A stretch of 64,000 nucleotides of DNA from Alphaproteobacteria bacterium (GTDB taxonomy: Bacteria > Pseudomonadota > Alphaproteobacteria > Micavibrionales > Micavibrionaceae): contig JAIXWE010000053.1 of the NCBI GenBank assembly GCA_027482195.1, forward strand, positions 3,308 to 67,307, written 5' to 3'. Under the pieces are notes generated by a model. It was given only the letters and a program-made list of their open reading frames with translations, made no database searches and was not told the origin of the DNA. How positions within the stretch are numbered: position 1 is the stretch's first letter; each line of letters opens with the position of its first letter. The translations under genes were made by a program, and so were the position numbers. Positions 3,329 to 45,522 of this stretch are shown here, piece after piece.

Positions 3329-3346
3329 CATAGGAAATAAAGGCAC

Positions 3347-11783: not shown

Positions 11784-12140
11784 TTAAGGTCGGTCCATAT
11801 CAATGGGCGCAGTATTAGCGTTTTTTTGTCCTGTTTGCAACTGTTGAAATCCACTGGAAATCGACATGTTATTCATGACCCGCCAGACATTATAAAAACC
11901 CGTAAAAATGCCCAAAAAAAGCATAATCATAAAGCCAAAAGGCCGTGTATCAAAGATATGGTCAATGCCGAAACCGACCGCTCCGCTGGCTAAAATTGCG
12001 GCAATAAGCTCAACCCCGGCGCGCAGGCCTTGATTCTGGTTTTGTGCATCATTTTCACGGGTCTGGCTTTCGGAGAGGCCACCGGAAGATTTAGCGGCTT
12101 CAAGGCGCGCTCGAATATCTTCGATTTCCGGCCCGGTCAT
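11784..12140 (-). CDS. atpI: ATP synthase protein I (AtpI/AtpZ-like)
   Basis: 118-aa two-TM protein immediately upstream of atpB. Its start shares one base with the smc stop (TGATG). Confidence 0.6.
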   Translation of the reverse strand: MTGPEIEDIRARLEAAKSSGGLSESQTRENDAQNQNQGLRAGVELIAAILASGAVGFGIDHIFDTRPFGFMIMLFLGIFTGFYNVWRVMNNMSISSGFQQLQTGQKNANTAPIDMDRP

Positions 12141-21528: not shown

Positions 21529-22772
<1,244 letters not shown>

Positions 22773-22773
22773 T

Positions 22774-29407: not shown

Positions 29408-29775
29408 AAAAAATTATTCTGCTTGTTGAAGACGAAAAAGAATTATGTGACATCCTTCAAGATGAATTGGGTGCGCAAGGTTATATGGTTGTGACCGCAC
29501 GTAATGGCGAAGAGGGCCTTAAAAAACTTCAGGAAGTTGAGCCTCACCTCATTATATGTGATCGCGCTATGCCGATTATGTCGGGGTACCAACTTTTGGA
29601 ACGTATTCGCGGGTCTTATCCGCAATATAATGATCTTCCCTTCATCTTCTTAACGGCAATGTCCGATCCGCGTGATCGCCATTCCGTGTCCCATTTGGAA
29701 CCCACGGCCTATATTGAAAAACCTGTGGATTTTGATCGCCTCTCGCAAGCAATCCGTAAGGCGTTAGGGGAATAA
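29404..29775 (+). CDS. Single-domain response regulator (CheY-like receiver)
   Basis: LVEDE acidic pocket, phospho-acceptor region IICDRAMP, FLTAMSD and conserved Lys (IEKPVD). It is coupled to the kinase by a 4-nt overlap. Confidence 0.85.
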   Translation: MKKIILLVEDEKELCDILQDELGAQGYMVVTARNGEEGLKKLQEVEPHLIICDRAMPIMSGYQLLERIRGSYPQYNDLPFIFLTAMSDPRDRHSVSHLEPTAYIEKPVDFDRLSQAIRKALGE

Positions 29776-29780
29776 GCCTT

Positions 29781-30287
29781 ATGCGTTTTTTTGTTGTTTT
29801 GTTTGGTATCTTTTTTCTCACCGCCTGTGCAACGTCACCATCACCTCTTGTGCGTGCGGGTCACCAGGCTGATTTGATCACTGTTGATAAATCAGAAAAA
29901 AAGTTGGTCTTGTGGCAAGAAGGAAAAGTTTTAAAAAATTATAATATTCTTGCATTCGGTGCAAACCCCGTTGGTCACAAACAATATGAAGGAGATGAGC
30001 GCACACCCGAAGGTGATTATTTCATCAGCCGTAAAAACCCGAGCAAGAAATTTCAAAAATTTCTAAATATTTCCTACCCTAATGAAGATGACAAAAAACG
30101 TGCGAAAGCGCTTGGAAAATCTCCCGGCGGTTTTGTTGGTATTCATGGTGACAAGGGCGGGGTTGAAGGCTTTTTTGATCGCTTTGATCCAAGATGGACG
30201 GATGGGTGCATCACCGTGCGCAATCATGAGATTGAAGAAATTTACCAATTGGTCCCGGTTGGCACGCGGATTATCATTTCCCCTTAA
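29781..30287 (+). CDS. L,D-transpeptidase (YkuD) family lipoprotein
   Basis: Lipobox LTAC and a YkuD core (GIHG..., catalytic Cys context TDGCITV). Confidence 0.75.
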   Translation: MRFFVVLFGIFFLTACATSPSPLVRAGHQADLITVDKSEKKLVLWQEGKVLKNYNILAFGANPVGHKQYEGDERTPEGDYFISRKNPSKKFQKFLNISYPNEDDKKRAKALGKSPGGFVGIHGDKGGVEGFFDRFDPRWTDGCITVRNHEIEEIYQLVPVGTRIIISP

Positions 30288-30301
30288 GTTACATTTCTTC
30301 A

Positions 30302-30316
30302 TGAAACTGTGTTTCA
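30302..30316. promoter_or_regulatory. Perfect 15-bp palindrome TGAAAC-TGT-GTTTCA (candidate operator)
   Basis: Read directly. The bottom strand reads CGTGAAACACAGTTTCA, so this site belongs to the CGTGAAA(C/T) motif family. Confidence 0.55.
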
Positions 30317-30326
30317 CGGTAATAAT

Positions 30327-30342
30327 ATTTTACGTGAAATTT
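30327..30342 (+). repeat. Left copy of a 16-bp perfect inverted repeat ATTTTACGTGAAATTT
   Basis: It is identical to the reverse complement of 45359-45374. Confidence 0.9.
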
Positions 30343-30349
30343 TTAAAAG

Positions 30350-30357
30350 CGTGAAAC
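30350..30357 (+). promoter_or_regulatory. CGTGAAAC motif copy upstream of ORF 30534
   Basis: AAAAGCGTGAAACAC, read directly. Confidence 0.45.
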
Positions 30358-30533
30358 ACAAAAAACATCAAAAAAAATAAAGTTTTATAATGGTTTTTAT
30401 GAGCTGAATAAGCCCGAGAAAGCTTCATTTTTTTCTTGCTCAAAATTCTACATTCAGTGAAAGCTCATATATATGTTAGACGCAGTTCACACTCATCACC
30501 TAATTAGTCCATAGAATTTAAGAAGGATTTCGC

Positions 30534-31550
30534 ATGGGGTTGCCAACCGGAATTATAAAACAAGATTGGGTTCGGCATTCTGCTCCACAATCCGATAATG
30601 TTTCTCTCCCTCCTAAAAAAGATGGTCAATTTTATATTTCGTCGAATGGTTCGATTTTTCGTCACTATAAACATGAAGATGATCGTTTAATTCTTGCTCC
30701 CGCAAATGTGATTGTACATGAAAAAAATAAAAGCGCGAATGATCGCAATAAGCGCGAAATGTTAGAGCGACTTCGTTTGCTGATTGAGATGCGTGATTTG
30801 GTCATGAATATATTACATCTTCAAGAAAAAACACCTGACGATTCTGTTTTGTCTCCGTGGCAAGATTTACAAAAAACTTTGAAAAAAAAGTATGGTATTT
30901 TTTTAGAAACTTTCGGCCCAATTTATAAAACGGAAAGTGATCATTCTTATCCAAACTTAAGAAAATTTCGTAAAGATCCTGATGGGCACCGTGTTGCTTC
31001 CTTGATTGAAAGTTGCGATGACTTAAAAAATCATACTGGCGTTGGTGATATTTTTAACCCGCGCGTTCTCGCACATAACAGTGATGGTCTTGCGTTGACG
31101 AGTCATCATCAAAGCCTAATAGAGATTCCTCAATCGAGGAATTTCTTAAAACCATGTTTTGTGTTATCAGAAGAAAATTTTTTCCCCTTCATGCGTCAAT
31201 TTTTCAAGCTTCATCCTTTGGCAAATCTTTTCGTCATTGATCAAGATCAATGGATTGATGATGGCGCGAAATTGTCAGTTGATGAAAAAATGGAACGCTT
31301 TGTAAATAAGGTTAATAATAATTCATGGGATGGCATTTTAATCATGCCAGTTCATTTTAAAAAGTTGGTCAAGCACAAGTATTTTGATCTCATGAATGTG
31401 GATCATTATTTCATCGATGAATCTATTCAGTCACATACAATTGATGCGGCCGCCAAGATTGACGAGAGTCTTATATCTAAATTTACGGTGCCGGAGAGTA
31501 AGAAGCCCCCGCGCGCGGCATGTTATGATCCACCATCTCTCGCGGCGTAG
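30534..31550 (+). CDS. Hypothetical protein, possibly a collapsed remnant of a mobile-element methylase/SNF2-type helicase fusion gene
   Basis: 338-aa ORF with colinear short blocks (EMRDLVMNILHLQE, LKKKYGIF, FRKDPDGHRVASLIE, GDIFNPR, WDGILIMPVHF, VDHYFIDESIQ). These recall the linker and DExH-box region of those large proteins. No Walker A and no methylase motifs are present. The 3' end overlaps the convergent gene by 68 nt. Confidence 0.4.
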   Translation: MGLPTGIIKQDWVRHSAPQSDNVSLPPKKDGQFYISSNGSIFRHYKHEDDRLILAPANVIVHEKNKSANDRNKREMLERLRLLIEMRDLVMNILHLQEKTPDDSVLSPWQDLQKTLKKKYGIFLETFGPIYKTESDHSYPNLRKFRKDPDGHRVASLIESCDDLKNHTGVGDIFNPRVLAHNSDGLALTSHHQSLIEIPQSRNFLKPCFVLSEENFFPFMRQFFKLHPLANLFVIDQDQWIDDGAKLSVDEKMERFVNKVNNNSWDGILIMPVHFKKLVKHKYFDLMNVDHYFIDESIQSHTIDAAAKIDESLISKFTVPESKKPPRAACYDPPSLAA

Positions 31551-32655
31551 CAAAAAACGGGTTAGTATCCTGTGTAGTTAAAATCGATCGATCAAATTCA
31601 CATGCATGGCCTTGTTGATCCGCAATAAATTGTAAAAGCTGACGTCTAAAACGATAACTGGTTCCATAGGCGATTTTTTCACAAACCTCTTCACCTAAAA
31701 TCTCTCGTGCCGCATTATATAATAGCGCGGCATCAGCTTCGTTATCATTACCACCTGAGAATTTGGGAGCGCGCTGCGTGTTATTGGCCAGATTAAAATC
31801 GCGTATCGCAAACAACATTGGCAATGCACGTGGTAAAAATCCGGTGTCCTTGGGAACAAAGTCATGATAGGGCGGCTTTGCCGCCGCACCGGTGGATGTT
31901 TTTGGCATATCCGTTCCGCATTCCAAACTCATGATAGTTGAATCATAAACGCTTCGGAAATAATCTGCGCCGTAAACAACATTGCGACTTGCATAGGCGT
32001 GCACCGAAACTTTTTGAATAGATTTCCATGTAAACTTTGTTTGCAAACGTGCCTCTTGTTCCGCCATCAAAATGCGGCGTACTTTTTCATGATCGCCGTC
32101 CATCCATGCTTCATAATTTATAACAGAATCGAAATCGACAGGATTGGAGACATCTTTCAATTTTTCCCAAGCATGAGCAATTTGTCGTTTTGCATCATCT
32201 GGATTCAAAAACCCGTGCGGATAACCTAAAACAACAGCAATACCAACATTCGGATAATCTTTTAAAAATTCAATAAGGGGGGTGATTTTATCCGTGTAGC
32301 CATTATCACCAAAATCTCCCCACGTACAGACGGCGCGCATCGGGAAAGGATACGTGGCCTCTCGCGCCATGCGTGTCATCCATTCTTTTGGTTCGTTGCG
32401 CGTGTTGCGTAATGTTGTGTGGTCTGTGCGCGCCAAAACCCACTCCATTCTTTCTGCAGTAATTTCAGGGTGAGAAAAATATTGCGCGTAATGATCTGCA
32501 ATTTGGCAAGATCTAAAATAAATCTCCCGCGCATGCTCACGTTGTGATGATAGGGAATCTTTGATGGAAAGACTTGTAAATACAGGAGAGGGGGCAATGG
32601 GGGGAGTGCTAGGTACAGATGATTTGAGCAACATGACAATCCCCACAACAGTCAA
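31483..32655 (-). CDS. Deoxyribose-phosphate aldolase (DeoC/DERA) family protein, divergent, with an N-terminal extension
   Basis: It is colinear with E. coli-type DeoC: TDHTTL (MDLTTL), GIAVVLGYPHGFLNPDD (IATVTNFPHGNDD), VDFDSVINY (VDVVFPY), MPKTSTG (FIKTSTG, Schiff-base Lys at 31900-31902), APKFSGG (GFKPAGG) and YRF. The track start is TTG, and the first in-frame ATG is at 32634. Confidence 0.6.
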   Translation of the reverse strand: MTVVGIVMLLKSSVPSTPPIAPSPVFTSLSIKDSLSSQREHAREIYFRSCQIADHYAQYFSHPEITAERMEWVLARTDHTTLRNTRNEPKEWMTRMAREATYPFPMRAVCTWGDFGDNGYTDKITPLIEFLKDYPNVGIAVVLGYPHGFLNPDDAKRQIAHAWEKLKDVSNPVDFDSVINYEAWMDGDHEKVRRILMAEQEARLQTKFTWKSIQKVSVHAYASRNVVYGADYFRSVYDSTIMSLECGTDMPKTSTGAAAKPPYHDFVPKDTGFLPRALPMLFAIRDFNLANNTQRAPKFSGGNDNEADAALLYNAAREILGEEVCEKIAYGTSYRFRRQLLQFIADQQGHACEFDRSILTTQDTNPFFATPREMVDHNMPRAGASYSPAP

Positions 32656-32715
32656 AAATTTATCCTAGCTTTAGCTAACAAATTCGTGATGTCTTTACAA
32701 GAAAACATTGGTTAA

Positions 32716-32744
32716 CGTGAAACAGTTTAAAGCGTGAAACAGTT
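32716..32744 (+). promoter_or_regulatory. Two perfect copies of CGTGAAACAGTT spaced 17 bp start to start, in the divergent promoter region
   Basis: The copies at 32716-32727 and 32733-32744 are identical 12-mers. They lie between the DERA-like gene (minus strand) and the giant-protein operon (plus strand). Confidence 0.6.
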
Positions 32745-32876
32745 CGGCTTTTCTTGAGTTTATCGCATCTAAAAGTTCGAAAAAAATCATCCCAATTTAT
32801 TTTGTTAGGTGATGCTAATTTAAGTTGACGGCTAAAGTTTTTTTGATTTAAAGGAGGACTATCAGAATATTTTAAT

Positions 32877-35561
32877 GTGTCACGCATCACCAAGAAAGTT
32901 ATAGAGATGGAAACACCTCTTGTAACCACGGCAAGCAAGTGGATAACAACGCAACCGCGTTATCCGGGTGATTTATTCCACAATTTCGATTTATATTATC
33001 CCAAACCTGATTACACGGATGACTATTGGAAGGCGCAACATATTAATGCGGAAACCATGGCGTCTTTTGAATCGCGCTCAAAATGGGCCTATATCAACCA
33101 AGCCATGTTTTATGCTTCTGCTTCAAGTGGGCGTGCGGCCTATGATATGGCACGGCGCTATCCTGAAAAAATATTGATCGGAAGTCGCAAATTTACAACA
33201 CCAGATGACGAACAATTTATGACGATTCAGTGTTTGAAATCAGCCCTTGATTCAAACGCACTGATGGGTCCTTTTGTATTAGCCCAAAATTACCGTGATA
33301 ATATGATTGCAGCAGGAATTGCTGCGCAAAATCTCACTGATCCACGCACGGGGGAGCGCAATGTTTATATTGTTGGGCCGCCGCATCGTGAAGCTTTTAT
33401 TCGCAGTTTGAAGCAATACCCGACATTATTGCGGGGTGCTGGTTACGAAGATGCAACATTCGAAATTCACTTCTGGGGGCCTTTTTGCACATTTGATGTG
33501 ACGCACGGCATTTATTCGGGGGATCATGCATGGTCGCGTAATGCTGCGATGGAAAAAGCTTCTGCGCTCGCTACTCAATATGGTGTTCCATTAATTTCAA
33601 TGTATCGCAGTGGTCGCGGATGTGCCGTTGTCGATATTTACAATCAATCTATCTCTCCGCTTGATCAAGCATGGGAAGATGCACGCCACATTGTTGATGT
33701 GGTTGGCCAGACTGTCCGGTTTAATGGCTCCGATTATTTCTTCCGTACTGAAGCAGCCGTCATGTTGTTGCTCACGCGCTTTTTATACGATGATTATGTG
33801 CGTAACGGAACGGGGGATCTTGTTCCAAGCTTAATGGATCCGGCGGTAAAGGCACATTATGCTTCGCCGGGTGAAATTGAAAAAATGGATATTTTGAAAC
33901 GCCATATGCTTCCCTATATGGCGAATTTTTGTAATTGGCCGACATTGCATCGCGCATTAAATAATGATCCTGCGTTAAAAGCTTACTGGGAAGAGAATGT
34001 TATTCCTCATTACGGGCAGATGGATAACAAAGCGGAAACGGAAGCAAAGATTCTAAGCTATCTTCCGCGCGGCGGTTGTGCTGATCAAGATTTGATGAAA
34101 AAAGTTTCTGAGTTGCGCGATCCGCGTAGCAAAAGTGTGTTTATGTCTTCATCAAATGAGAACGCACAATTTGCAAAACCGCCCATGTCACAAGGATTGC
34201 ATGAAGAAGCGTTTTCATCTGAATACGATCCGCTTATTTTTAATGACCGCAACTTTGCACGATTAAATGCAACATCAAATCCTAACCAAGATCCATCACC
34301 AACACATTACAGTTTTGAACAATCGGCAGCCATTATGGTTTTGGCGGGCTTTCGTAATAAAGGTTTGGTGCCTTTTGACGCGCCGCGGACATTATTATTT
34401 CTCGATGGTGCAAGCCAAGGTGAAATGCCTAAAAAATTCCGTGAAGATAAAGGCGTGTCTCATCCATCAGAAATGGGTGCAATATTTGATGTTTTATCAC
34501 GCGGTGGTGAAAACTTTGCCGAAAGTGTAGGTGAAGAAAATGCAGCAAATTTAAAAGATTTAACCCGGCGGATGATGTTTCATCCTTCTTTTGAGTTATG
34601 GCGCAAAAAACATGGTGTGGGTAATATTATTCCTGTATCTGATTTTTCGGCTGCTTTTGCCCAATTTGAAGGGCGGCGCGAAGCAACGAATACGGAAGTG
34701 CACGAAGCCATTGATGCGCGCGGGTCGATGAAAATAACTTCGGCCACGAGTGAGGCGACAGTGCGCCGTTATATTGCCGTCGAAGCACAGGGAATAGTTA
34801 TTCCGAGTGGCGATATTGATGAACGCAGCTATCGTTACATCACAGATGGTGTCTTGGCAACGATCGGTAAAACACCGCGCCCAAATTCTGGTGGTAAATA
34901 TCAATTCGAGTTTTTCTTGAAATCATCCGGTGATGATCAGATTAAAAAACTTGATTTGGCTGATTTGATTATCCTTGTTGGGCTTCAAGTTAAGTCTGAT
35001 TTAGAAAAAAAGACGCCGGCAAAACTAAAAGATCGTTATGTATCAATGGCGCGGCTACTCAATATCTATGAATATCTTATTGATCCTGCGCAACGGAATC
35101 AGGTTTACAAACGTGACTCATTATCTGGTGCAGATTCTCAGAAAAGCATAATTGATTGGAAGCAAGTTGATCCTGATTTTAGTGAATTTATAACCTATAC
35201 CCCCACTTTTGATATTTCTATTTTTGATAAAGATGAAGAATATCAAAAATTTTCAAATAATACATTGGACTTGCAAACATATTTATTTGATCCCGTGCAA
35301 AAATCAAAACTGGTTCAAATGATATGGGCATGGATGGTGGCTGCACCCATTAAGGTGCGAGAAATTGGTAAGGATATGCCAACACGTGGAAATTTATTAG
35401 CGCGGGCGATTAAGGATTTTGACGATCGTGATTTGATTGATCTGCCTAGTGAGTACCGCGACGCCAAGAAATGGTGGGAAGGCATGAACGCGCGGCAGCG
35501 TAAAGAGTTTTTTGAGCAAGGAACTATTCATTTACAAGGGCCCGCAGTTGATGTGCGTTAA
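32877..35561 (+). CDS. Hypothetical large protein (894 aa), first gene of the giant-protein operon
   Basis: Long uninterrupted ORF in which I recognise no catalytic or nucleotide-binding motif. The start is ambiguous: GTG at 32877, or ATG at 32907 preceded by a 9-codon mini-ORF. Confidence 0.6.
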   Translation: MSRITKKVIEMETPLVTTASKWITTQPRYPGDLFHNFDLYYPKPDYTDDYWKAQHINAETMASFESRSKWAYINQAMFYASASSGRAAYDMARRYPEKILIGSRKFTTPDDEQFMTIQCLKSALDSNALMGPFVLAQNYRDNMIAAGIAAQNLTDPRTGERNVYIVGPPHREAFIRSLKQYPTLLRGAGYEDATFEIHFWGPFCTFDVTHGIYSGDHAWSRNAAMEKASALATQYGVPLISMYRSGRGCAVVDIYNQSISPLDQAWEDARHIVDVVGQTVRFNGSDYFFRTEAAVMLLLTRFLYDDYVRNGTGDLVPSLMDPAVKAHYASPGEIEKMDILKRHMLPYMANFCNWPTLHRALNNDPALKAYWEENVIPHYGQMDNKAETEAKILSYLPRGGCADQDLMKKVSELRDPRSKSVFMSSSNENAQFAKPPMSQGLHEEAFSSEYDPLIFNDRNFARLNATSNPNQDPSPTHYSFEQSAAIMVLAGFRNKGLVPFDAPRTLLFLDGASQGEMPKKFREDKGVSHPSEMGAIFDVLSRGGENFAESVGEENAANLKDLTRRMMFHPSFELWRKKHGVGNIIPVSDFSAAFAQFEGRREATNTEVHEAIDARGSMKITSATSEATVRRYIAVEAQGIVIPSGDIDERSYRYITDGVLATIGKTPRPNSGGKYQFEFFLKSSGDDQIKKLDLADLIILVGLQVKSDLEKKTPAKLKDRYVSMARLLNIYEYLIDPAQRNQVYKRDSLSGADSQKSIIDWKQVDPDFSEFITYTPTFDISIFDKDEEYQKFSNNTLDLQTYLFDPVQKSKLVQMIWAWMVAAPIKVREIGKDMPTRGNLLARAIKDFDDRDLIDLPSEYRDAKKWWEGMNARQRKEFFEQGTIHLQGPAVDVR

Positions 35562-35585
35562 TGATGATGATAAGTACGGAGTTAC

Positions 35586-38500
35586 GTGATGGTTAAGTTT
35601 TCTGATGCACTGACAGAAAACTACTCACTTGATATGTGGTTGCGGCGTTTGGGGCTTTGGCGTCATAAGCCAATTGGTTTAATGACGATTGATGAACGAA
35701 AAGCATATCTTCATTCAAATGCCTTCTCAAAACCTCTTGTTTTAACGGGATCCTCTTACGACCCTGAAGGCTATCAGCTCATCAGCATGATGTCGCTTAC
35801 GCACTATGATCATGTAAGTGGTATTCTTGATGATAAAATTATTTATTGGCGACACACATTGGATGATGATGTTGATGAAGCAGGTAAAATTCCATTTCAG
35901 GATTATTTTGTTTTAGGGATACGCGGTGTCCGTGATGATCACCTAACGGGTGAGGGTGTTCCGGTTATTGTGCCGGATCAAATCTGGTGGAACGGGAATT
36001 TGGTCTTTAATGGTCCAGCAAATGGGGGGCGTCATGATCCGGAGCGCCCTGAACAACAACGTCAAATTAATCGCTATCTTGAGATGAGTCAGCAAGTTAA
36101 AGAGCATTTAAATAGAGGTTTGCCGCTTGAAAAAATTGGCCATGTGTTCTCACAAGATGTGTTGAGTGATCATTTCTCTGCGCGCGCTCTTGGGGGCGCG
36201 CCTTTCTTGCGTGGTTTAAGCTCATCAGGATGGGATAACGTGGAGCGGCTTCTTGGGGCAAATTTTGTTGACTTGTTTCAAAAAGAAGATCAGAGAATTT
36301 CATTTCGTCTTCCATCCTTACCTGAAATCTCTTCACTTGATCGCTTAAAAGCTCTTCATGGTTTTTATATCAACAGTGTGGAGCCAATACGCTGTTTAAG
36401 TGAGCAATGGGATAAATATGCCTCTGATATGCGCACGGGAATGGGTTATGTCACAGAAACGAATTACTTTTTTGATGAACAAAAGCAACGTCATATTTTT
36501 TCAGTGCGTATTGCCTCAGAAAATCCACCTAAGGATATGCCAAAATTTGAGCCATATGAATTAATACGCCTTGAATATACTCAGGGTGAGGATGTTTTTA
36601 CGCTGGAAGATTCATTCTTTATGGGTGTCAAAGATAAGAAATATCAAAAAAATAGTGATTTTTTAAGTCTTATTGGGGCTTTGCAAGATACAAATCAAGC
36701 CCTATCTGAGCGCATTTTTCCTGATTATCAATCTATTTTAATGCGCAATAAACTTCATAATCGTATTAGTGAATTTCGCATGCCGCCAAAATTATCAGAC
36801 GGGGGCGAGGCGTTGTGGATTCCATTATGGGGAACCAATATGCGCAAAACGATTGAAGAGTTTGGGGATGGTATTGGTGGTGGAAATTTATTTATGCATC
36901 GTGGGCGTGATGATGATAACCACCTTGATGAAATTGCCGTGCTACATGGCTTGCCGTATCAGCCGGGAAGCCCAGACTCGAATTATAAAGGTGCACAGCC
37001 GAGTTTAGTGCCTTATCTTGATGCCTTGCGCCGTGGTGCGATCATCATTGATCACATTCACTTTGATCACTCAACAATTGAGTTTTATGCGACACAAAAG
37101 GATCAAAGTGGTAACGGTTGGTTCAAAGGGCAAAAAATTATTTGTAAAGGTATAGATGCCTATATCATGAAAAATCGTCTTTTGCGCCTGGGTGTTAAGC
37201 AAGATCAGTGGCCAGAATTTATTGAATTTGATCGTGATGATGCGTTTGCGCGTTACCCCAATCTCTTTAAAGATAGAAACGGAAATTTTGCTTATCGCAT
37301 TCAAGATGAAAAAGGCAACACGCGCGGATGGAATCAGATTTGTAAAGATGGAACAAGCCATTCAGCGTTGACGGACTCTTACCTTATTACAATGTGTTAT
37401 AATAATAATTTACTTGATACCTATTATATCGATAGTGATGCGAACGGGCTTAACGACAACGGATGGAAATTTGCAGAAGACGGCCAATTTGCGCTTGAAG
37501 GCATTGATGGAATTACACGCGAAGATTTATTGAAAGCTGTTAAGTCAGAAGATAAATTATATATCTCACTAGAAGAGCCGACAGGAATTACGCGTACTGG
37601 GCGTTGTTCTACACCTGAGCAATTCAAAGATACATTCCGTGCATTAGAAAAAGCATTACCCGAAGGCTTTGCGCATGGCGTCATTCCTTTTTCAACCAAT
37701 CATTTGGAATATCAAGCTATTCGTGAAGTATGGGCCGAAAAAGATACGTTGCGGCATACGACAGCGGTTGGCGCCAACGCCCAATTGCGGGATACGGCAT
37801 TAAATATATATGGGGTCAATCCTAAACTTGATTTGCGCACAGTGACTATTGCGCATGATCATATTCCGCAATTAGTTTATGAGCTTTTATATGATGGCAT
37901 GATTGATTTCATGATAAAGGCTGAGAAAAAAGCGTTACGACAGTCAAAAAGAGAATACGAAAGCAGAACATTAGATGAGATTTTAAATGATGATGTGGTG
38001 TATCAAAAAGTAAAAGCAATTTTTGATACTCATAAAGATAATTTTGATCATGGCGTATCGCAACCGATTGAGTTTTATAATGGATTTTTGAATAACCAAG
38101 ACGGTGATTTAACAAAATTGATGCAATCATGGTTGCGCAAATATACCAAAGTATTTTGGGAAGGTGCAGATAAATTATCAACCGCATATAATGGAAATAC
38201 GTGCAATTTTATGCTGTCTAAACTAATAAGCAAAGGGATGGTCACATTTGACTCCCGTTGCGGTCACAATGATTACAATATGTATCAAGCCATTATGGTG
38301 AAGCAAGACCACGCTTCTGTTCACGGTGTGCGTACCGCAAAACGCACCAAAAGATTTAGAAATGACTATGGACAGCTTGGCTTTATTTCAACTGACCCAT
38401 TGGGGACTTCGGACAGTCGCTTCGGGTCAATGTCGCGTTTTGCAAATGGTGACTCACTCTTTGACTATGATGAATTTGTGCGTAACACAGGTTACAAGAT

Positions 38501-39335
38501 TGATCCTGAGAAACTTATTCTCACAGTGACACAAACCGCGAGCATGGGATCTGATGCATGGAAATCTCAAGATCAGCTTATGCAGAAAATTTCACATGAC
38601 CGTGGTGTGACAGTTTTTTGTGCGATTGATGACGGCTTTAAAATCTATAATCCGCGTGAGCATCGCGCGCGCTATGAAGCGATGTGTCGTGAAGAAGGAT
38701 GGAGCTTCACGGGCGACGGTCGCATGATGTATATTCATGCTGCGCATTCGCACATTCAAGGTCACAGGCGTGAGCAAGATATGCGGGATAAAATGACTGA
38801 CCCCCGCTATAAACCAAAATTGGTGGAAGTCATTCATTGCCCAAGTGTTGAGAGTTTGAATATTCTTAAAAATGTCGTGCGTGATGCGGGTCATCGCATG
38901 ACGATCAAAGAGCCGGAAAATAATATCGCGCGCGCATGCGAGTGGGATGAGAAAACACAATCTTATAACATGATTGATAAAGACTATTTAAGTGAACGGA
39001 TGATGTTAATCAATTGGGCCGCAAAATATGGTCAGATGTATAATTGGGTTGTAACAATGACCGAGGCAATTGTGATGCCAAAACGTGGTGGTGCACGGGC
39101 TGATCCACTTACAATGCGGTCACATTTATGTAGCGAGTTCCAGCAACAAACCGCATTGCGAAACACAGCAAGCTGGATAAGACCAAAATTTGGTAACAGT
39201 AGCCGTGGGCGAGCTTTAGGGCCTGCGCCCGCCGATATTCGTGAGGAGGGTGGAGCTCCGCCTGCTCCTATGATGACCGATATGTTACGCCGCGCCTTAA
39301 TATCAAGCTCCGCACGGAGATTGCAGAATGTTTGA
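35586..39335 (+). CDS. Giant protein (1249 aa) with an RNase J-like metallo-beta-lactamase/beta-CASP core
   Basis: GGAG lies 8 nt before the ATG at 35589 (GTG at 35586). The HxHxDH motif IIIDHIHFDHS is at 37053-37070. RNase J-like blocks occur in order: WIPLWGTN..IGGGNLF, SLVPYLDAL, GTSHSALTDSYLI, YYIDSDANG, HIQGHRREQDM. About 400 N-terminal residues have no motif I recognise. Confidence 0.6.
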   Translation: MMVKFSDALTENYSLDMWLRRLGLWRHKPIGLMTIDERKAYLHSNAFSKPLVLTGSSYDPEGYQLISMMSLTHYDHVSGILDDKIIYWRHTLDDDVDEAGKIPFQDYFVLGIRGVRDDHLTGEGVPVIVPDQIWWNGNLVFNGPANGGRHDPERPEQQRQINRYLEMSQQVKEHLNRGLPLEKIGHVFSQDVLSDHFSARALGGAPFLRGLSSSGWDNVERLLGANFVDLFQKEDQRISFRLPSLPEISSLDRLKALHGFYINSVEPIRCLSEQWDKYASDMRTGMGYVTETNYFFDEQKQRHIFSVRIASENPPKDMPKFEPYELIRLEYTQGEDVFTLEDSFFMGVKDKKYQKNSDFLSLIGALQDTNQALSERIFPDYQSILMRNKLHNRISEFRMPPKLSDGGEALWIPLWGTNMRKTIEEFGDGIGGGNLFMHRGRDDDNHLDEIAVLHGLPYQPGSPDSNYKGAQPSLVPYLDALRRGAIIIDHIHFDHSTIEFYATQKDQSGNGWFKGQKIICKGIDAYIMKNRLLRLGVKQDQWPEFIEFDRDDAFARYPNLFKDRNGNFAYRIQDEKGNTRGWNQICKDGTSHSALTDSYLITMCYNNNLLDTYYIDSDANGLNDNGWKFAEDGQFALEGIDGITREDLLKAVKSEDKLYISLEEPTGITRTGRCSTPEQFKDTFRALEKALPEGFAHGVIPFSTNHLEYQAIREVWAEKDTLRHTTAVGANAQLRDTALNIYGVNPKLDLRTVTIAHDHIPQLVYELLYDGMIDFMIKAEKKALRQSKREYESRTLDEILNDDVVYQKVKAIFDTHKDNFDHGVSQPIEFYNGFLNNQDGDLTKLMQSWLRKYTKVFWEGADKLSTAYNGNTCNFMLSKLISKGMVTFDSRCGHNDYNMYQAIMVKQDHASVHGVRTAKRTKRFRNDYGQLGFISTDPLGTSDSRFGSMSRFANGDSLFDYDEFVRNTGYKIDPEKLILTVTQTASMGSDAWKSQDQLMQKISHDRGVTVFCAIDDGFKIYNPREHRARYEAMCREEGWSFTGDGRMMYIHAAHSHIQGHRREQDMRDKMTDPRYKPKLVEVIHCPSVESLNILKNVVRDAGHRMTIKEPENNIARACEWDEKTQSYNMIDKDYLSERMMLINWAAKYGQMYNWVVTMTEAIVMPKRGGARADPLTMRSHLCSEFQQQTALRNTASWIRPKFGNSSRGRALGPAPADIREEGGAPPAPMMTDMLRRALISSSARRLQNV

Positions 39336-42300
39336 CAAGAACAATCAACGCATCGCACGTAAACGATTTTTATGGCCACAAGTCACGCGCGGTGAGTTAA
39401 TGAACTTGACGATTGATTTTGAAACAAGCGGTTTGGATCGCCAAAATGTCCCTTATGCAACAAAATCATACTCTTTTACTACAGAATATGGGGATGCTCT
39501 GACTGATTTTGCGGGAAACTATTTAAACTCGGCTCAAATTTTTCCGCGTCGTCCTGATTGGTTGGTTGCACAAACACCGGCATTGATCTTACAGCGTACA
39601 CCAACGGGGCCTGCGGATTTAGATGACGAATCTCGGATTCCTTATTCTCAAGCGTGGGCGGCAATTTCATGGCGTATTGAACAAGCTATGTTCGCCTATG
39701 ACCAATTTGGCCATCCGACGAACATTATTTCAATCGCTGACTATGATAAAAGTTTTAAGCACGGCCAAAAAGATGCTATTGAGACTGTCATTGATATTCC
39801 TCTTTTGGATGATAACGGGGAAATCGTTTATGACTTAAGATACCATCCTGAACGCCGCAAAATTTCATATCGAATTGATAGAGATCCGCAAAGCCCTTAT
39901 TACCGTGTCCCGCATAATATTTATTACAAAGACAAAGATGATAAATCGTTATGGAAATGGGTTGATCCAAGCTTATACGTTGATTTTTATAATGCTCGTT
40001 TTGATTTGCCGCATTTGCGGATGCAACTCTATCGCACCGGATCGGATCCCCAGGATACAACATTTTTATATGCACGCGGTACACCAAGCAACAAACAACG
40101 CAAGCGCGGCCATATTGTTGATGTCCGCCACGTGGCTTACGCTACGGCTCTTTACGGACCGCAAGGTGAGCAAGGCTTAAATCTTGGTCGCATTATTGAT
40201 GAACGTGGCCGTATAAGAAATTCCGAGGCCTTATCAGCCTATCTATCCTCGAATTCCAATTTTGAGAATCCAATGCGTTTGATAAAGCAAGGTATCTTTA
40301 TGCCAGATGGGTCTTTGCATGATCCTAATATGGATCATGGCGCAGCCTACGATGCCCTTGGTACGGTTGCATTACGTAACCATTGTTGGGATATTGCGCC
40401 GTGGGTGTGCGCCGAAGTGGTGCGTCAATCCGATGATAATGACCGCCGTCATTTTTTAATGCGCCAAGATCCGGTCCGTACGATCTTTCCGCTTTATACA
40501 TTGCCGCGCCGTCAAGAAGGCTTAAGTCACAGCGATCAACTTTATTGGTATTTGGGCAATGATAATGCGCTTGGAGATTTCAAGGATGACATTTTTCTGC
40601 GCGTGGACGGCAAATTAAGGCACGAGACATACAAAGAAAAATTATTGAAGGATTTATCTGTTGAAGAGTGGGTCGAATATCTTTCCTTAAAGGTCACGTC
40701 ATCAGATCCTGATCGCGCCGTAAGAATGGAATCGCATCGTTTGGCACCACCTGCTTTTGCTTTTGATGATGTTGTCAACTACACATCCCAGGGCGGTAAA
40801 TATAAATCGCGCTTTAAAGATTTATCGCAAGACATCAAATATATCACTGAGAACGAACAAATGCGGGAACGTATTTTCTCAGCTATCGCATTAAAAAATG
40901 AAGTGCGTCGCAAAAATGCACATGTGCCTCATGTCAAACTTTTAGAGGATGAATTGCCATCCCAATACTCTATCGAAGTAAGTTTTCAAGACGATGCACG
41001 ACGTGAGGAGCAGCGGCAGCAGTTTATAAAGTCGGGTTATAAAGGGCCAGAAATTCAGCCAGGCATTTTAGATACAATCAAAAATGCCATGGATAATGTC
41101 TATAAATTTCAACGTCAAATTGACTCGGCGTCTAGACGTTTATGCTTGAAGGCTCATCCAATTGACTTTTTTAAAGATTATGAACTCGATGATTTTGCTC
41201 ACATGCAGGATCCAGATATTGCCGCTGTTCTTCAAAATTATACTGATTTATGCGAACGTGTTTATAGCATTTATAAAAAGAAGGAGTCTTCTTATAAAGA
41301 CTTTCTTGATGAGATTGTAAATCCTGTGACTGGTGGATCTTTCTTTAAAAAGGGACGATTTAAAGCACAAACGGTTGGACAAGCATTTTATTTTCGCAAA
41401 GAGTTGATGCGCCGTGCCCTTAATGATTATGATATCTTACTATCCTATAAAGGTTCGGACACGCATAAAAAATCATATATTGAAGGAGTGGTTGATAAAA
41501 AAGTTTATTCCTTATCGCATCGCGGTAAGCAACTTTTTCTCTTTGCCGACCCAGATAATGGTGTTCAGGGATCACAGCCATTTTTAGTCGATGAATATGG
41601 CCGGAGATTGGAACTATCCTACATTAAGTCTATTTCTCCGCGTGATGCGATTAATCTGCTTGTAAATGAAAATAAATGGGAAATCCGTTTTTATCGTCTA
41701 AGATCAGATCCAACAATTTTAAGGCTGGCTCAGCGGGCGCTTGATCTAGACATGGGTAATATTATCCCGCCCGCTATTTTGCACATGTATCAGGCAGATA
41801 AAAGAAACCGCCATCTGATCCTTCCGAACGAGACACCAACAACGTCACGTATTCCGACATTACTCACAGACGAAATTGACATTACGCGGCTTGAAATTGC
41901 TGCATCCAGTCAATCGCCTTTGATTTTGGAGCGCGCAGAAGATTCTGCATTATCGGTTGCCGCGCGCCTGATCAAGCAAGATGAGTCATGGCGTATTTTA
42001 TCAAACTCACGTGCTTATAATACAGAAATGACATCTTCTGCCTTGAGTTGGCAGCCATGTTTATCTGCTGCTATGTTTGACCCTGTAAGTAATTTGCCTT
42101 ACGAGTTTATCGAGCATCTTATTCCGCGTGATAGCTCAAAAGATTTTGAGGATGATCCTAATATTATCATCATTGATGTTCCGGTATGGCATGCGCATTA
42201 CCCTATCGAGCAATATGACCCGCGTCTTCCTTTTCGCGGCCTGGTTATAGATGATATTCCAAAATATCAACGCGAACTTATCCGCGAGAATCGCCGCCAT

Positions 42301-43107
42301 GTTGTTATTCGTGTCAAAGAAACGGGGCAAATGTTTGCATGTGGGCGAACATCGCTTCATACCGTTCAATCAAATGATAAATCATTTTCAAGTATTCTTG
42401 AGAAGGCCAGTAATGATTACCTGCAATCCGGCCACAAACTTTCGGATAAAAAAAATCTTTTGTTTTTGGGAATTGAAAAACTATACCCGATAGCAAATAC
42501 CCGCCCGATTGATCAATCTTACCAGTCCTTATCACTTGCCAGCCCTCAATTTTATGGCCTTGTATCGCCGTGTTTTGCAAATTTACGGGACACATTTTTA
42601 ACAGCAGCTATTGTCCCATATGATTACGCATCACAACGTTTTATGAAGGGGGATCCTATCCACTTGCATGAAATGGAAGGACAAATTTTTGCGTCATCTA
42701 ATGGGCAGCGTAATCCCAACACAGGGCATATGTATGAATCTATCCTCGATGATATCAAGGGGGTTGACGAGAATGGTAATAAGCAAGGCATTACAATCGA
42801 GCAAATAATGCGCGACATTCGAAGTGGTGACTTGTCATCGGAATTTGTGAGAGCGGCCGGATTTTTAGGCCCTGATCATTTGGAGCAACATCTGCACGAT
42901 TGGACGGCGGCGCGTTTTAAATCAAATCCAGATCAGGAAAAATTTTTATTATGTTCCTTTGCACCGGTGAATGAGGTTTACCGTGAAACAGGAAGGGAGA
43001 AAGATAATAAATGGGTTTATTTTGATGGTCTTTCTGTACCAAGGGCGGCCATTTCGTGGGATGGGCAAATGCCACCACCTCAAAGTTATCGGCGGGTTTT
43101 TGTATAA
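39328..43107 (+). CDS. Giant protein (1259 aa) with an N-terminal exonuclease I (SbcB)-like DEDDh 3'-5' exonuclease domain
   Basis: Exo I motif IDFETSGLD (39412-39438), Exo II FYNARFDLPHL (39985-40017) and Exo III HGAAYDALGTVAL (40336-40374). The start overlaps the upstream stop by 8 nt (ATGTTTGA). About 900 C-terminal residues have no motif I recognise. Confidence 0.6.
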   Translation: MFDKNNQRIARKRFLWPQVTRGELMNLTIDFETSGLDRQNVPYATKSYSFTTEYGDALTDFAGNYLNSAQIFPRRPDWLVAQTPALILQRTPTGPADLDDESRIPYSQAWAAISWRIEQAMFAYDQFGHPTNIISIADYDKSFKHGQKDAIETVIDIPLLDDNGEIVYDLRYHPERRKISYRIDRDPQSPYYRVPHNIYYKDKDDKSLWKWVDPSLYVDFYNARFDLPHLRMQLYRTGSDPQDTTFLYARGTPSNKQRKRGHIVDVRHVAYATALYGPQGEQGLNLGRIIDERGRIRNSEALSAYLSSNSNFENPMRLIKQGIFMPDGSLHDPNMDHGAAYDALGTVALRNHCWDIAPWVCAEVVRQSDDNDRRHFLMRQDPVRTIFPLYTLPRRQEGLSHSDQLYWYLGNDNALGDFKDDIFLRVDGKLRHETYKEKLLKDLSVEEWVEYLSLKVTSSDPDRAVRMESHRLAPPAFAFDDVVNYTSQGGKYKSRFKDLSQDIKYITENEQMRERIFSAIALKNEVRRKNAHVPHVKLLEDELPSQYSIEVSFQDDARREEQRQQFIKSGYKGPEIQPGILDTIKNAMDNVYKFQRQIDSASRRLCLKAHPIDFFKDYELDDFAHMQDPDIAAVLQNYTDLCERVYSIYKKKESSYKDFLDEIVNPVTGGSFFKKGRFKAQTVGQAFYFRKELMRRALNDYDILLSYKGSDTHKKSYIEGVVDKKVYSLSHRGKQLFLFADPDNGVQGSQPFLVDEYGRRLELSYIKSISPRDAINLLVNENKWEIRFYRLRSDPTILRLAQRALDLDMGNIIPPAILHMYQADKRNRHLILPNETPTTSRIPTLLTDEIDITRLEIAASSQSPLILERAEDSALSVAARLIKQDESWRILSNSRAYNTEMTSSALSWQPCLSAAMFDPVSNLPYEFIEHLIPRDSSKDFEDDPNIIIIDVPVWHAHYPIEQYDPRLPFRGLVIDDIPKYQRELIRENRRHVVIRVKETGQMFACGRTSLHTVQSNDKSFSSILEKASNDYLQSGHKLSDKKNLLFLGIEKLYPIANTRPIDQSYQSLSLASPQFYGLVSPCFANLRDTFLTAAIVPYDYASQRFMKGDPIHLHEMEGQIFASSNGQRNPNTGHMYESILDDIKGVDENGNKQGITIEQIMRDIRSGDLSSEFVRAAGFLGPDHLEQHLHDWTAARFKSNPDQEKFLLCSFAPVNEVYRETGREKDNKWVYFDGLSVPRAAISWDGQMPPPQSYRRVFV

Positions 43108-43402
43108 TCTATTTCCGTTTTACTTTTTCAGTTTGTAATTTACCTGCATCATAATTGGGGTAGCGTAAATTTTTTTTCAGCCAATAATTAAAAAGTGTAA
43201 ACGCGTTTTTAGAGCGTTTTTAATTTTTGGAAATGAAAATCACGGATTTTCGCCAAAAAGCAAGTCCCCCTGATTAAGGTCTTGGTTAAGGCGTTGTAAA
43301 TATTGATTATAATTTATCTCAAATTCAAAATAGTTTCCATAATGTTTACGTTGATTTAACCTCCAGTGACTATCCTTAGAATCGTTCTGGGGAGAATAGA
43401 CA

Positions 43403-45291: not shown

Positions 45292-45358
45292 GGCAATCAC
45301 CAATTTGTTTTTGTTTCTTGAATGCTTAAGACTATATATCAAAACACCCCGTCTTGGC

Positions 45359-45374
45359 AAATTTCACGTAAAAT
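45359..45374 (-). repeat. Right copy of the 16-bp perfect inverted repeat (AAATTTCACGTAAAAT on the plus strand)
   Basis: It is the reverse complement of 30327-30342. It lies 68-83 nt upstream of the ATG at 45291 and 59 nt from the tRNA-Ser 3' end. Confidence 0.9.

Positions 45375-45432: not shown

Positions 45433-45522
<90 letters not shown>

What the first reader, a model, noticed from the sequence alone, without database searches (positions are those of the whole stretch)
30302..32744. CGTGAAA(C/T) motif family concentrated in the island's promoter regions
Intergenic copies read directly from the sequence:
- Bottom strand of the perfect palindrome TGAAACTGTGTTTCA (30302-30316, extended CGTGAAAC at 30311-30318).
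- CGTGAAAT at 30333.
- CGTGAAAC at 30350.
- Two identical 12-mers CGTGAAACAGTT at 32716 and 32733, 17 bp apart.
- CGTGAAAT on the bottom strand at 45361-45368.
These sit upstream of ORF 30534, between the divergent DERA-like gene and giant operon, and upstream of the secreted-protein gene. Three more exact CGTGAAAC copies lie inside island coding sequence (42982, 44197, 44819). In an unaided eye scan I found no exact CGTGAAAC outside 30.3-44.9 kb. This looks like a shared operator for an unidentified regulator. No DNA-binding protein is evident in the block.
Basis: seen in the sequence. Interest (0 to 1): 0.65.

Follow-up and report, generated by a model that had tools for sequence, protein, structure and literature searches.

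The report
parS-half-site repeats in three island promoters
A short DNA word identical to half of the bacterial centromere site parS is repeated at regular 16-17 bp steps in front of three gene units of a low-GC island, so it is probably a shared docking site for one unidentified DNA-binding protein, though nothing here shows binding or regulation.

Summary
CGTGAAAC occurs 8 times against 2.7±1.6 expected (0 of 300 shuffles). Three CGTGAAAY within 60 bp never occurred in shuffles. One copy outside the island (13791) was missed. The four coding copies fit chance.

The seven intergenic copies are more ordered than reported. They sit on a 16-17 bp lattice, four upstream of ORF 30534, two between the DERA-like gene and the giant operon, and one abutting a sigma-70-like -35 hexamer of the secreted-protein gene. 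Regions A and B share a 27-mer (23/27). Regions A and D share an exact 16-mer in inverted orientation.

The core CGTGAAACA is nine consecutive bases of parS (TGTTTCACGTGAAACA), and one copy is a 14/16 parS. My best reading is an operator array for a protein encoded outside the window, with a ParB-family protein the leading candidate. This is inference only.

Against it: seven homologous cassettes in other metagenomes lack the motif, no regulator lies nearby, and no RNA data exist.

The island is a rare, uncharacterised five-gene nuclease/helicase cassette, and ORF 30534 is the decayed helicase. Interest is moderate.

The parts
30300..30307 (+). site s0, CATGAAAC (one mismatch), left arm of the perfect palindrome 30302-30316; lattice dyad 30300.5
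30311..30318 (-). site s1, CGTGAAAC(A). The 16-mer 30310-30325 TGTTTCACGGTAATAA has a perfect left parS half (12/16). Dyad 30317.5
30327..30342 (+). site s2, 16-mer ATTTTACGTGAAATTT (core CGTGAAAT at 30333-30340). It is an imperfect palindrome ATTTyACGTrAAAT. The parS-frame 16-mer 30326-30341 matches parS at 12/16. Dyad 30333.5
30343..30358 (+). site s3, TTAAAAGCGTGAAACA (core at 30350-30357). It is 15/16 identical to site s5. Dyad 30350.5. With s2 it forms composite A, 30332-30358
32709..32724 (+). site s4, TGGTTAACGTGAAACA, a 14/16 match to parS (core at 32716-32723). Dyad 32716.5. It lies 82 bp upstream of the DERA-like ATG at 32634
32726..32741 (+). site s5, TTTAAAGCGTGAAACA (core at 32733-32740). 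Dyad 32733.5. With s4 it forms composite B, 32715-32741, which matches composite A at 23/27. It lies 174 bp upstream of the g1 ATG at 32907
45359..45374 (-). site s6, ATTTTACGTGAAATTT, an exact inverted copy of s2 (core at 45361-45368). It directly abuts the -35 hexamer of the promoter-like site below
45331..45360 (-). sigma-70-like promoter TTGCCA-N18-TATAGT (10/12) for the secreted 272-aa protein (ATG 45291). The s6 dyad falls at about -42 to -44 from the inferred start
   Evidence: the position relative to the start is inference
30534..31550 (+). ORF 30534 (338 aa), a decayed remnant of the cassette's 1300-1480-aa SNF2/DarB-like helicase. Residues 1-248 align to 1-277 and residues 206-288 to 516-598 of the L002 protein. 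The rest is lost
31483..32634 (-). DERA-like (DeoC/LacD-type) aldolase gene, divergent from the giant operon. The KTSTG motif holds invariant K252/T253/S254/G256 (390-aa P0001 numbering), and I infer K252 to be the Schiff-base lysine
32907..43107 (+). giant operon. g1 (884 aa) has a confident model with no PDB fold match. g2 (35586-39335) has an invariant HxHxDH motif. g3 (39328-43107) has invariant DxE and H-x4-D motifs
42982..42989 (+). coding copy of CGTGAAAC (codons R-E-T of g3). With 44197 (+), 44819 (+, antisense to ORF 44473-45291) and 13791 (+, antisense in the putative smc) it is judged chance
45433..45522 (-). tRNA-Ser(TGA), marking the right edge of the low-GC block. No tRNA-derived repeat is present at the left edge

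Best explanation
The seven intergenic CGTGAAAY copies are binding sites for one sequence-specific DNA-binding protein encoded outside the window. They are arranged as abutting 16-17 bp units: four in front of the helicase remnant, two between the DERA-like gene and the giant operon, and one touching the -35 hexamer of the secreted-protein promoter.

Occupancy of these arrays would couple transcription of the three units. At the secreted-protein promoter the geometry fits -35 occlusion or class-II-type activation. At the other two regions the arrays lie 140-230 bp upstream of the start codons.

The core CGTGAAACA is nine consecutive bases of the ParB site parS. The T-variant contains the P1 box-A heptamer ATTTCAC. 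One copy is a 14/16 parS. The most likely binder is therefore a ParB-type helix-turn-helix protein, either the host's own ParB acting on 'half-parS' clusters or a paralogue.

Shown here: the sites, their non-randomness, their lattice, and their identity to the parS half-site. Inferred: binding, the identity of the protein, and the direction of regulation.
For: Enrichment and clustering:
- CGTGAAAC 8 against 2.7 expected, 0 of 300 shuffles.
- A triple within 60 bp in 0 of 300 shuffles.
- 7 of 10 intergenic hits with up to one mismatch lie in three island regions.

Order beyond the 8-mer:
- Dyad spacings are 17, 16 and 17 in region A and 17 in region B.
- The composite 27-mers match at 23/27, with all mismatches outside the heptads.
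- s3 and s5 are 15/16 identical (read).
- s2 and s6 share an exact 16-mer in inverted orientation (2 of 500 shuffles).

All sites are upstream of genes, and s6 abuts a 10/12 sigma-70-like promoter.

parS identity:
- 32709-32724 matches at 14/16.
- 30310-30317 is a perfect left half.
- Four copies match parS positions 8-16 exactly.

Precedent:
- Chromosomal ParB of P. aeruginosa and several other species occupies hundreds of GTTTCAC/GTTCCAC half-parS sites (PMC7022226, section 4).
- P1 parS is built from heptamer A-boxes and hexamer B-boxes (PMC5016525).
- The same 9-mer occurs as tandem direct repeats in intergenic regions of many unrelated viral contigs. This suggests that repeats of this half-site are used as a unit in other elements.
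Against: - No binding or expression data exist. Only low-coverage DNA runs hold this sequence.
- The motif and any parS-like word are absent from the corresponding intergenic regions of seven homologous cassettes: L001-L003, L015-L018 and L020 (L016 and L019 are the same contig). It is therefore not an inherent part of the cassette.
- No candidate regulator and no parAB genes were recognised in the window. Not every ORF was scanned against a domain library.
- Only one site approaches a full parS. Most are half-sites in direct orientation, and the 30302-30316 palindrome has the half-sites everted relative to parS.
- A 17-bp step puts neighbouring sites on different faces of the helix, which is unusual for cooperative regulators.
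- The 13-mer shared by regions A and B is not rare on its own (76 of 500 shuffles reach 13 or more).
- The review notes that half-parS binding may not account for ParB's transcriptional effects.
Confidence: 0.45

Rival explanations
1. Relic of duplication. A short promoter-region segment was copied between the three regions, and a 17-bp unit was duplicated in tandem. The similarity is history and nothing binds it.
For: - Regions A and B align over 47 nt at 72% (family D1).
- Two-copy tandem repeats arise easily by slippage.
- The motif is lineage-specific.
- A shared 13-mer between AT-rich intergenic regions is not rare.
Against: - Identity is confined to the heptads while the flanks differ in six copies.
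- All 4 mismatches of the 27-mer pair fall outside the 14 heptad positions (about 0.04 by chance, my calculation).
- Copies occur in both orientations and in three regions up to 15 kb apart.
- Similarity stops abruptly after the second core.
- Tandem Repeats Finder sees no 17-bp array, so the spacers are not copies.
Confidence: 0.2
2. A genuine secondary ParB loading site whose role is chromosome organisation (ParB nucleation, SMC recruitment, bridging) rather than control of the island's promoters.
For: - 32709-32724 matches parS at 14/16.
- parS-type sites are accepted with one or two mismatches (own knowledge).
- The half-parS bridging model is set out in PMC7022226.
- Perfect parS abutted by a second near-parS at a 17-bp step exists in viral contigs.
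Against: - Two or more hits with up to 3 mismatches occur in 11 of 100 shuffles.
- No parAB genes were recognised among the window's ORFs and the GC skew shows no switch, so there is no sign of an origin-proximal position.
- The placement of all sites upstream of genes is not explained by this reading.
Confidence: 0.1
3. Recombination or transposition sites of a mobile island, that is, end-binding sites for a transposase or arm-type sites for an integrase.
For: - The block has lower GC and lies beside the tRNA-Ser 3' end.
- The exact 16-mer sits near both edges in inverted orientation.
- There are several sites at one end and one at the other.
Against: - The island holds no integrase or transposase gene.
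- There is no tRNA-derived direct repeat and no target-site duplication (flanks read).
- Sites s0 and s1 lie outside the left 16-mer.
- The region B pair is 2.4 kb inside the block.
- Homologous cassettes sit in unrelated contexts without the motif.
Confidence: 0.05
4. An RNA-level or structural element, such as a hairpin acting as a terminator or leader.
For: 30308-30360 folds at -16.7 kcal/mol, z = -3.6, and lies just after the stop codon of the YkuD gene.
Against: - No T-run follows on either strand.
- Region B has no structure above background (z = +0.6), so structure is not the shared property.
- Rfam finds only the tRNA.
Confidence: 0.04
5. Pure chance in AT-rich intergenic DNA.
For: The 8-mer was chosen after inspection. 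The 7-mer is not enriched. Other k-mers rank higher for intergenic bias.
Against: 0 of 300 shuffles reach either the count or the local triple, and the 16-mer match has p of about 0.004. Both long matches share the same core.
Confidence: 0.02

Closest known systems
half-parS sites bound by chromosomal ParB (P. aeruginosa and several other species; PMC7022226, section 4)
   Same: The heptamer is identical: GTTTCAC is the reverse complement of GTGAAAC. The sites lie away from any recognisable parAB locus, and some lie in promoter regions.
   Different: The sites here are clustered on a 16-17 bp lattice in three neighbouring promoter regions, with extra conserved bases (C before, A after). In P. 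aeruginosa the sites are scattered singly and mostly inside genes. No ParB data exist for this organism.
parS, the 16-bp ParB centromere TGTTTCACGTGAAACA
   Same: Nine consecutive bases are identical in four copies, one copy matches at 14/16, and one has a perfect left half.
   Different: Most copies are half-sites in direct orientation. They are not next to parAB or an origin within the window, and they are placed upstream of genes.
P1/P7 plasmid parS, built from heptamer A-boxes and hexamer B-boxes around an IHF site (PMC5016525; the box-A sequence ATTTCAC is from my own knowledge)
   Same: The T-variant CGTGAAAT contains ATTTCAC. The heptamers are used in both direct and inverted orientation within one locus.
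   Different: No B-box or IHF site was recognised, and no plasmid or partition genes are present.
KorB-OB operator network of IncP-1 plasmids (own knowledge; mentioned in PMC7022226, section 10)
   Same: A ParB-family protein acts as a global repressor through sites in several promoters of one element, some overlapping the -35 and some up to about 190 bp upstream.
   Different: OB is a different 13-bp palindrome used singly, and the regulator is encoded on the element itself.
omega-protein heptad arrays of pSM19035 (own knowledge; PMC9499535 surfaced in the search but was not read)
   Same: Arrays of short repeats in direct and inverted orientation lie in promoter regions and serve as both operator and centromere.
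   Different: Those heptads are contiguous (7-bp step) and are bound by a ribbon-helix-helix protein.

Membership tests
parS (chromosomal ParB centromere) | 16-bp palindrome within about 2 mismatches of TGTTTCACGTGAAACA | tested here: inconclusive
   One site matches at 14/16 (32709-32724). The others match at 9-12/16. Two or more hits with up to 3 mismatches occur in 11 of 100 shuffles.
parS (chromosomal ParB centromere) | lies in the origin-proximal domain, usually near parAB | tested here: not met
   No ParA or ParB was recognised among the window's ORFs (not every ORF was scanned). Cumulative GC skew rises without a switch. The rest of the genome is unavailable.
parS (chromosomal ParB centromere) | bound by ParB, with CTP-dependent spreading | not testable with these tools
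   Needs ChIP-seq or in-vitro binding.
half-parS sites | heptamer GTTTCAC or GTTCCAC | tested here: met
   Four intergenic copies contain exact GTTTCAC (s1, s3, s4, s5). s0 (CATGAAAC) carries GTTTCAT, and two copies carry ATTTCAC.
half-parS sites | ParB occupancy in vivo | not testable with these tools
   No ChIP data. The organism is known only from a freshwater metagenome.
operator of a dedicated regulon | the same site upstream of two or more transcription units | tested here: met
   Three of four island intergenic regions carry it.
operator of a dedicated regulon | site conserved upstream of orthologous genes | tested here: not met
   Seven homologous cassettes lack it. The closest is only 57% identical at protein level, so the test is weak.
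operator of a dedicated regulon | cognate regulator encoded nearby | tested here: not met
   No DNA-binding domain was found in the island. The neighbouring response regulator is receiver-only.
ECF-sigma promoter (-35 TGAAAC, -10 CGT, about 16-nt spacer; own knowledge of the sigma-W consensus) | 16-17 nt between the AAC and CGT elements | tested here: not met
   The spacer between TGAAAY and the next CGT is 9 nt. No CGT lies 16-17 nt after the second copy (read).
intrinsic terminator (for the 30302-30316 palindrome and the 30308-30360 hairpin) | GC-rich stem followed by a T-run | tested here: not met
   The hairpin is significant, but the stem is AT-rich and an A-run follows. The hit (30306-30320) has only 3 GC pairs and a weak tail.
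mobile-element ends or att sites | terminal inverted repeats with target duplication, or a direct repeat of the tRNA 3' end, plus a recombinase gene | tested here: not met
   A 16-bp inverted pair is present, but there is no duplication, no tRNA-derived repeat and no recombinase.
Agrobacterium vir box TNCAATTGAAAY (own knowledge) | 12-bp box | tested here: not met
   Only TGAAAY matches. The upstream half differs in all copies.

The most novel reading that the evidence does not exclude
The host's ParB, or a ParB-like CTPase encoded elsewhere, has been recruited as a sequence-specific silencer or insulator of a horizontally acquired nuclease/helicase cassette. It would act through arrays of half-parS sites laid on a 17-bp lattice in each of the cassette's promoters. 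Half-parS clusters would then be a dedicated transcriptional device rather than incidental binding sites.
Probability: 0.15. Interest if true: 0.7.

Novelty: new member of a known kind. Interest (0 to 1): 0.4.

Why it matters
If the arrays are bound by a ParB-type protein, this would be a clear natural case of half-parS clusters used as promoter operators. The biological meaning of half-parS binding is stated to be an open question in the ParB literature (PMC7022226), and this case would make it testable with three short probes.

Whatever the binder, the motif marks three transcription units as a probable co-regulated set. The cassette they surround is rare and uncharacterised (18-23 homologues among 5.8 billion clustered proteins). 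Its proteins include one with a confident fold that has no solved relative.

If the motif turns out to be a duplication relic, the finding is ordinary.

Tried and rejected
- Exact-protein look-ups of window genes returned nothing, because the window's contig is masked in that index.
- The first genome-contig scan with the single DERA-like protein found no relatives.
- A metagenome scan for the composite CGTGAAAYN5WAAAGCGTGAAAC gave 11 loci and no relative of the window. Five are the coding sequence of the SmpB C-terminal tail (KRETIKKRET). The others are unrelated.
- Sequencing runs are three freshwater DNA runs at about 6x word depth. They show no RNA and no informative variants in the motif regions.
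- A search for a lineage-specific motif shared between the helicase-upstream and divergent regions of other cassettes found only a 14-mer in L002. It is tied to the ribosome-binding region and was not recovered in the upstream region scanned in L002's close relative L018.
- ECF-promoter, terminator, vir-box, CtrA-box and att/TIR readings were rejected on spacing or missing parts.
- The giants gave nothing in Pfam at E up to 10, PADLOC, NCBIfam, PDB sequence search, or plasmid and phage tblastn.
- A homologue search with ORF 30534 returned only itself.
- Its single-sequence AlphaFold model is unusable (pLDDT 34), so the winged-helix question for the remnant stays open.
- A literature search for the new Pfam names found nothing.
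- Related words CGTAAAC and CGTAAAT show no pattern.
- Rfam finds nothing at the phage repeats.
Full report
OBSERVATION

Every coordinate in the finding is right. The perfect palindrome TGAAACTGTGTTTCA lies at 30302-30316. CGTGAAAC is on the bottom strand at 30311-30318, CGTGAAAT is at 30333, and CGTGAAAC is at 30350. The two CGTGAAACAGTT 12-mers lie at 32716 and 32733. CGTGAAAT is on the bottom strand at 45361-45368. The coding copies are at 42982, 44197 and 44819.

One exact CGTGAAAC outside the island was missed. It lies at 13791, antisense inside the 1156-aa ORF 12140-15610, which I read as SMC from its N-terminus.

STATISTICS

- CGTGAAAY occurs 14 times against 7.8±2.6 expected, and 2 of 100 shuffles reach 14.
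- CGTGAAAC occurs 8 times against 2.68±1.59 expected, and 0 of 300 dinucleotide-preserving shuffles reach 8.
- Three CGTGAAAY within 60 bp never occurred in 300 shuffles.
- Half of the exact copies lie in the 5% of the window that is intergenic (p = 4e-4). This is not the most intergenic-biased word in the window.
- Allowing one mismatch, 10 of 79 hits are intergenic, and 7 of those are in the three island regions.
- The bare 7-mer GTGAAAC is not enriched (13 against 9.4).
- The four coding copies match expectation. They lie in different frames or strands: R-E-T in g3, V-K in the 350-aa ORF, and antisense at 44819 and 13791. I treat them as chance.

ANATOMY BEYOND THE 8-MER

I place a dyad between the C and G of each CGTGAAA.

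- Region A (30288-30533) holds four sites at 30300.5, 30317.5, 30333.5 and 30350.5, giving steps of 17, 16 and 17 bp.
- Region B (32635-32906) holds two sites, at 32716.5 and 32733.5, a step of 17 bp.
- A 27-mer is shared. It reads ACGTGAAATTTTTAAAAGCGTGAAACA at 30332 and ACGTGAAACAGTTTAAAGCGTGAAACA at 32715 (23/27). All four mismatches fall outside the two heptads.
- The downstream units TTAAAAGCGTGAAACA and TTTAAAGCGTGAAACA are 15/16 identical.
- The upstream unit of region A, ATTTTACGTGAAATTT (30327-30342), recurs exactly and inverted at 45359-45374. A shared word that long arose in 2 of 500 shuffles of the intergenic regions.

Across six copies the flanks differ while CGTGAAA is invariant. 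That is the signature of a constrained site rather than a copied segment.

Region A can fold into a strong hairpin (z = -3.6). Region B cannot (z = +0.6). Sequence, not structure, is what the regions share.

GENE CONTEXT

The block from 30.3 to 45.4 kb has lower GC than its flanks and ends at the 3' side of tRNA-Ser(TGA). To its left lie a PAS histidine kinase, a receiver-only response regulator and a YkuD L,D-transpeptidase.

Inside the block are these genes:
- ORF 30534
- the DERA-like gene, with a weak deoC hit and a precomputed PF01791 hit in one homologue
- three giant ORFs
- a 350-aa ORF
- a signal-peptide protein of 272 aa

Homologues of the DERA-like protein are rare. There are 17 beyond the window's own protein, at 38-57% identity. 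In eight loci the DERA-like gene has the same divergent neighbours, a roughly 890-aa protein and one or two roughly 1270-aa proteins as far as each contig reaches. In six of the eight a convergent helicase follows (full-length, 1300-1480 aa and SNF2-like, in four; cut by the contig end in L015 and L016). L001 has no helicase there, and L020 was not examined. The host records are named Alphaproteobacteria bacterium, Micavibrio sp. and Pseudobdellovibrionaceae MAGs.

ORF 30534 is the decayed helicase of this cassette. Its residues 1-248 align to 1-277 and its residues 206-288 to 516-598 of the L002 protein, and the rest is gone. It also hits a DarB-like PHROG.

Across six orthologues, g2 keeps an invariant HxHxDH motif (H490, H492, D494, H495). 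g3 keeps DxE (D30, E32) and H-x4-D (H337, D342). I read these as a metallo-beta-lactamase-fold hydrolase and a DEDDh-type exonuclease. That reading rests on motifs only, because no profile library supports it.

g1 gives a confident AlphaFold model (pLDDT 86, pTM 0.86) with no PDB fold match (best E = 0.55, TM below 0.15). The cassette has no match in plasmid or phage records or in PADLOC.

IS THE MOTIF PART OF THE CASSETTE?

No. None of the homologous loci has CGTGAAAC, GTGAAA clusters or parS-like words in the corresponding intergenic regions. There is also no general habit of a lineage-specific word shared by the two promoter regions. The motif is therefore specific to this lineage. That points to a host-encoded binder rather than a cassette-encoded one, or to no function at all.

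No domain library finds a DNA-binding protein in the island. The only such regulator recognised among the ORFs I scanned or could name by eye is NtrX. The helicase remnant cannot be excluded. Its full-length homologues carry a precomputed N-terminal 'WH_1' hit, but its own model is unusable.

WHAT THE WORD IS

CGTGAAACA is positions 8-16 of the ParB site parS, TGTTTCAC|GTGAAACA (own knowledge; the sequence recurs throughout the ParB papers retrieved).

- Site 32709-32724, TGGTTAACGTGAAACA, is a 14/16 parS.
- 30310-30317 is a perfect left half.
- The other units score 9-12/16.
- The T-variant contains ATTTCAC, the box-A heptamer of P1 parS (own knowledge; the A-box and B-box architecture is described in PMC5016525).

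A review of chromosomal ParB reports that P. aeruginosa ParB and several other ParBs occupy hundreds of 'half-parS' heptamers, GTTTCAC or GTTCCAC. It calls the significance of this unresolved (PMC7022226).

In IMG/VR contigs the same 9-mer forms tandem direct repeats in intergenic DNA. About 2 pairs per spacing are expected by chance. These repeats lie next to terminase, portal or primase genes in contigs of 35-68% GC. Three unrelated contig families carry a perfect parS abutted by a near-parS at a 17-bp step. These observations show that repeats of this half-site are used as a unit elsewhere. They do not show that the 17-bp step is preferred.

MECHANISM

My best reading (confidence 0.45) is that the seven sites are an operator family for one protein encoded outside the window.

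At the secreted-protein gene the site abuts the -35 hexamer of a 10/12 sigma-70-like promoter (TTGCCA-N18-TATAGT). This puts its centre near -42 to -44, a position that fits either occlusion or class-II activation.

In regions A and B the arrays lie 174-234 bp upstream of the helicase-remnant and g1 start codons, and 82 bp upstream of the DERA-like ATG. I could not place convincing promoters there.

A ParB-type helix-turn-helix protein is the leading candidate for the binder, at about 0.2 on its own. That estimate rests purely on sequence identity and precedent.

Rivals, in order:
- a duplication relic (0.2)
- a true secondary ParB loading site serving chromosome organisation (0.1)
- mobile-element end or att sites (0.05), since there is no recombinase, no target duplication and no tRNA repeat
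- an RNA hairpin (0.04)
- chance (0.02)

VERDICT

The 'shared operator' interpretation is reasonable but unproven, and it is weakened by the lack of conservation and of any expression or binding data.

The added value of this second look has three parts:
- the 16-17 bp lattice
- the extended 16-mer and 27-mer matches
- the recognition that the word is the parS half-site, which turns 'unidentified regulator' into a specific, cheap experiment

As a class of thing, a repeated cis-element in neighbouring promoters, it is a new member of a known kind. Interest is 0.4.

Noticed in passing
window 30534-31550: ORF 30534 is not an intact gene of unknown function. It is a decayed remnant (an internal deletion of roughly 250 aa plus loss of the C-terminal roughly 800-1100 aa) of the 1300-1480-aa SNF2/DarB-like helicase that accompanies this cassette in other metagenomes. 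Its 3' end overlaps the DERA-like gene.
   Followed up: yes
window 31483-43107; loci L001-L003, L015-L018, L020: A conserved, rare and unannotated five-gene cassette. It comprises three large proteins of about 890, 1270 and 1280 aa, a divergent DERA-like aldolase and a convergent SNF2-like helicase. g2 has an invariant HxHxDH motif. g3 has invariant DxE and H-x4-D motifs. This suggests a nucleic-acid-processing system, possibly defence. Only 18-23 homologues were found in 5.8 billion protein clusters, in Alphaproteobacteria, Micavibrio and Pseudobdellovibrionaceae MAGs. There was no hit in PADLOC, plasmids or phages.
   Followed up: partly
window 32907-35561 (g1, 884 aa): The AlphaFold model from 23 homologues is confident (pLDDT 86, pTM 0.86). 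Foldseek finds no solved structure resembling it (best E = 0.55, TM below 0.15). It may be a new fold or domain arrangement.
   Followed up: partly
viral loci L036, L041, L045, L049, L051, L052, L066, L082, L100, L110, L127 and others: CGTGAAACA occurs as tandem direct repeats with a preferred 12-13 bp step in intergenic regions of many unrelated phage contigs (GC 35-68%). They usually lie beside terminase, portal or primase genes. L036 has six copies at 3332-3405, followed by a second repeat family (GCGTAGTCA). No Rfam family matches, and the binder is unknown.
   Followed up: partly
viral loci L022, L026, L028, L030, L031, L039; L033, L038; L035: A perfect parS, TGTTTCACGTGAAACA, is directly abutted by a second 14/16 parS at a 17-bp step in low-GC viral contigs. 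This is the same step as in the window's arrays. The pattern searched imposed the step, so no enrichment is claimed.
   Followed up: partly
L002 9784-9795 and 9987-10000; L015 9781-9790 and 9981-9990; L018 (same sequence as L002): In the leader of the DERA-like gene, a CCCTGTT word about 200 nt upstream is complementary to the AACAGGGA ribosome-binding region in several loci (three sequences from two distinct lineages). It may be an anti-Shine-Dalgarno pairing or regulatory leader. No equivalent was recognised in the window copy.
   Followed up: no
L005-L007, L011, L014 (e.g. L005 481-506): The DNA pattern CGTGAAAC-N9-CGTGAAAC also arises from the conserved C-terminal tail of SmpB (KRETIKKRET) in low-GC metagenome contigs. 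This is a coding look-alike that would contaminate any database scan for the motif.
   Followed up: yes
window 27845-30287: A PAS histidine kinase, a receiver-only response regulator (no output domain) and a YkuD L,D-transpeptidase lie immediately left of the island, all on the same strand. The pair cannot itself bind DNA but could feed a regulator encoded elsewhere.
   Followed up: no
window 43108-43402 and 22699-22773: These two intergenic regions share the 14-mer AGCGTAAATTTTTT. It resembles site s2 with one G missing (CGT-AAATTTTT against CGTGAAATTTTT). This is probably chance in AT-rich DNA.
   Followed up: partly
window 54890-56197: A 435-aa protein with BspA-type leucine-rich repeats sits among housekeeping genes. 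This feature is often seen in host-associated or predatory bacteria.
   Followed up: no
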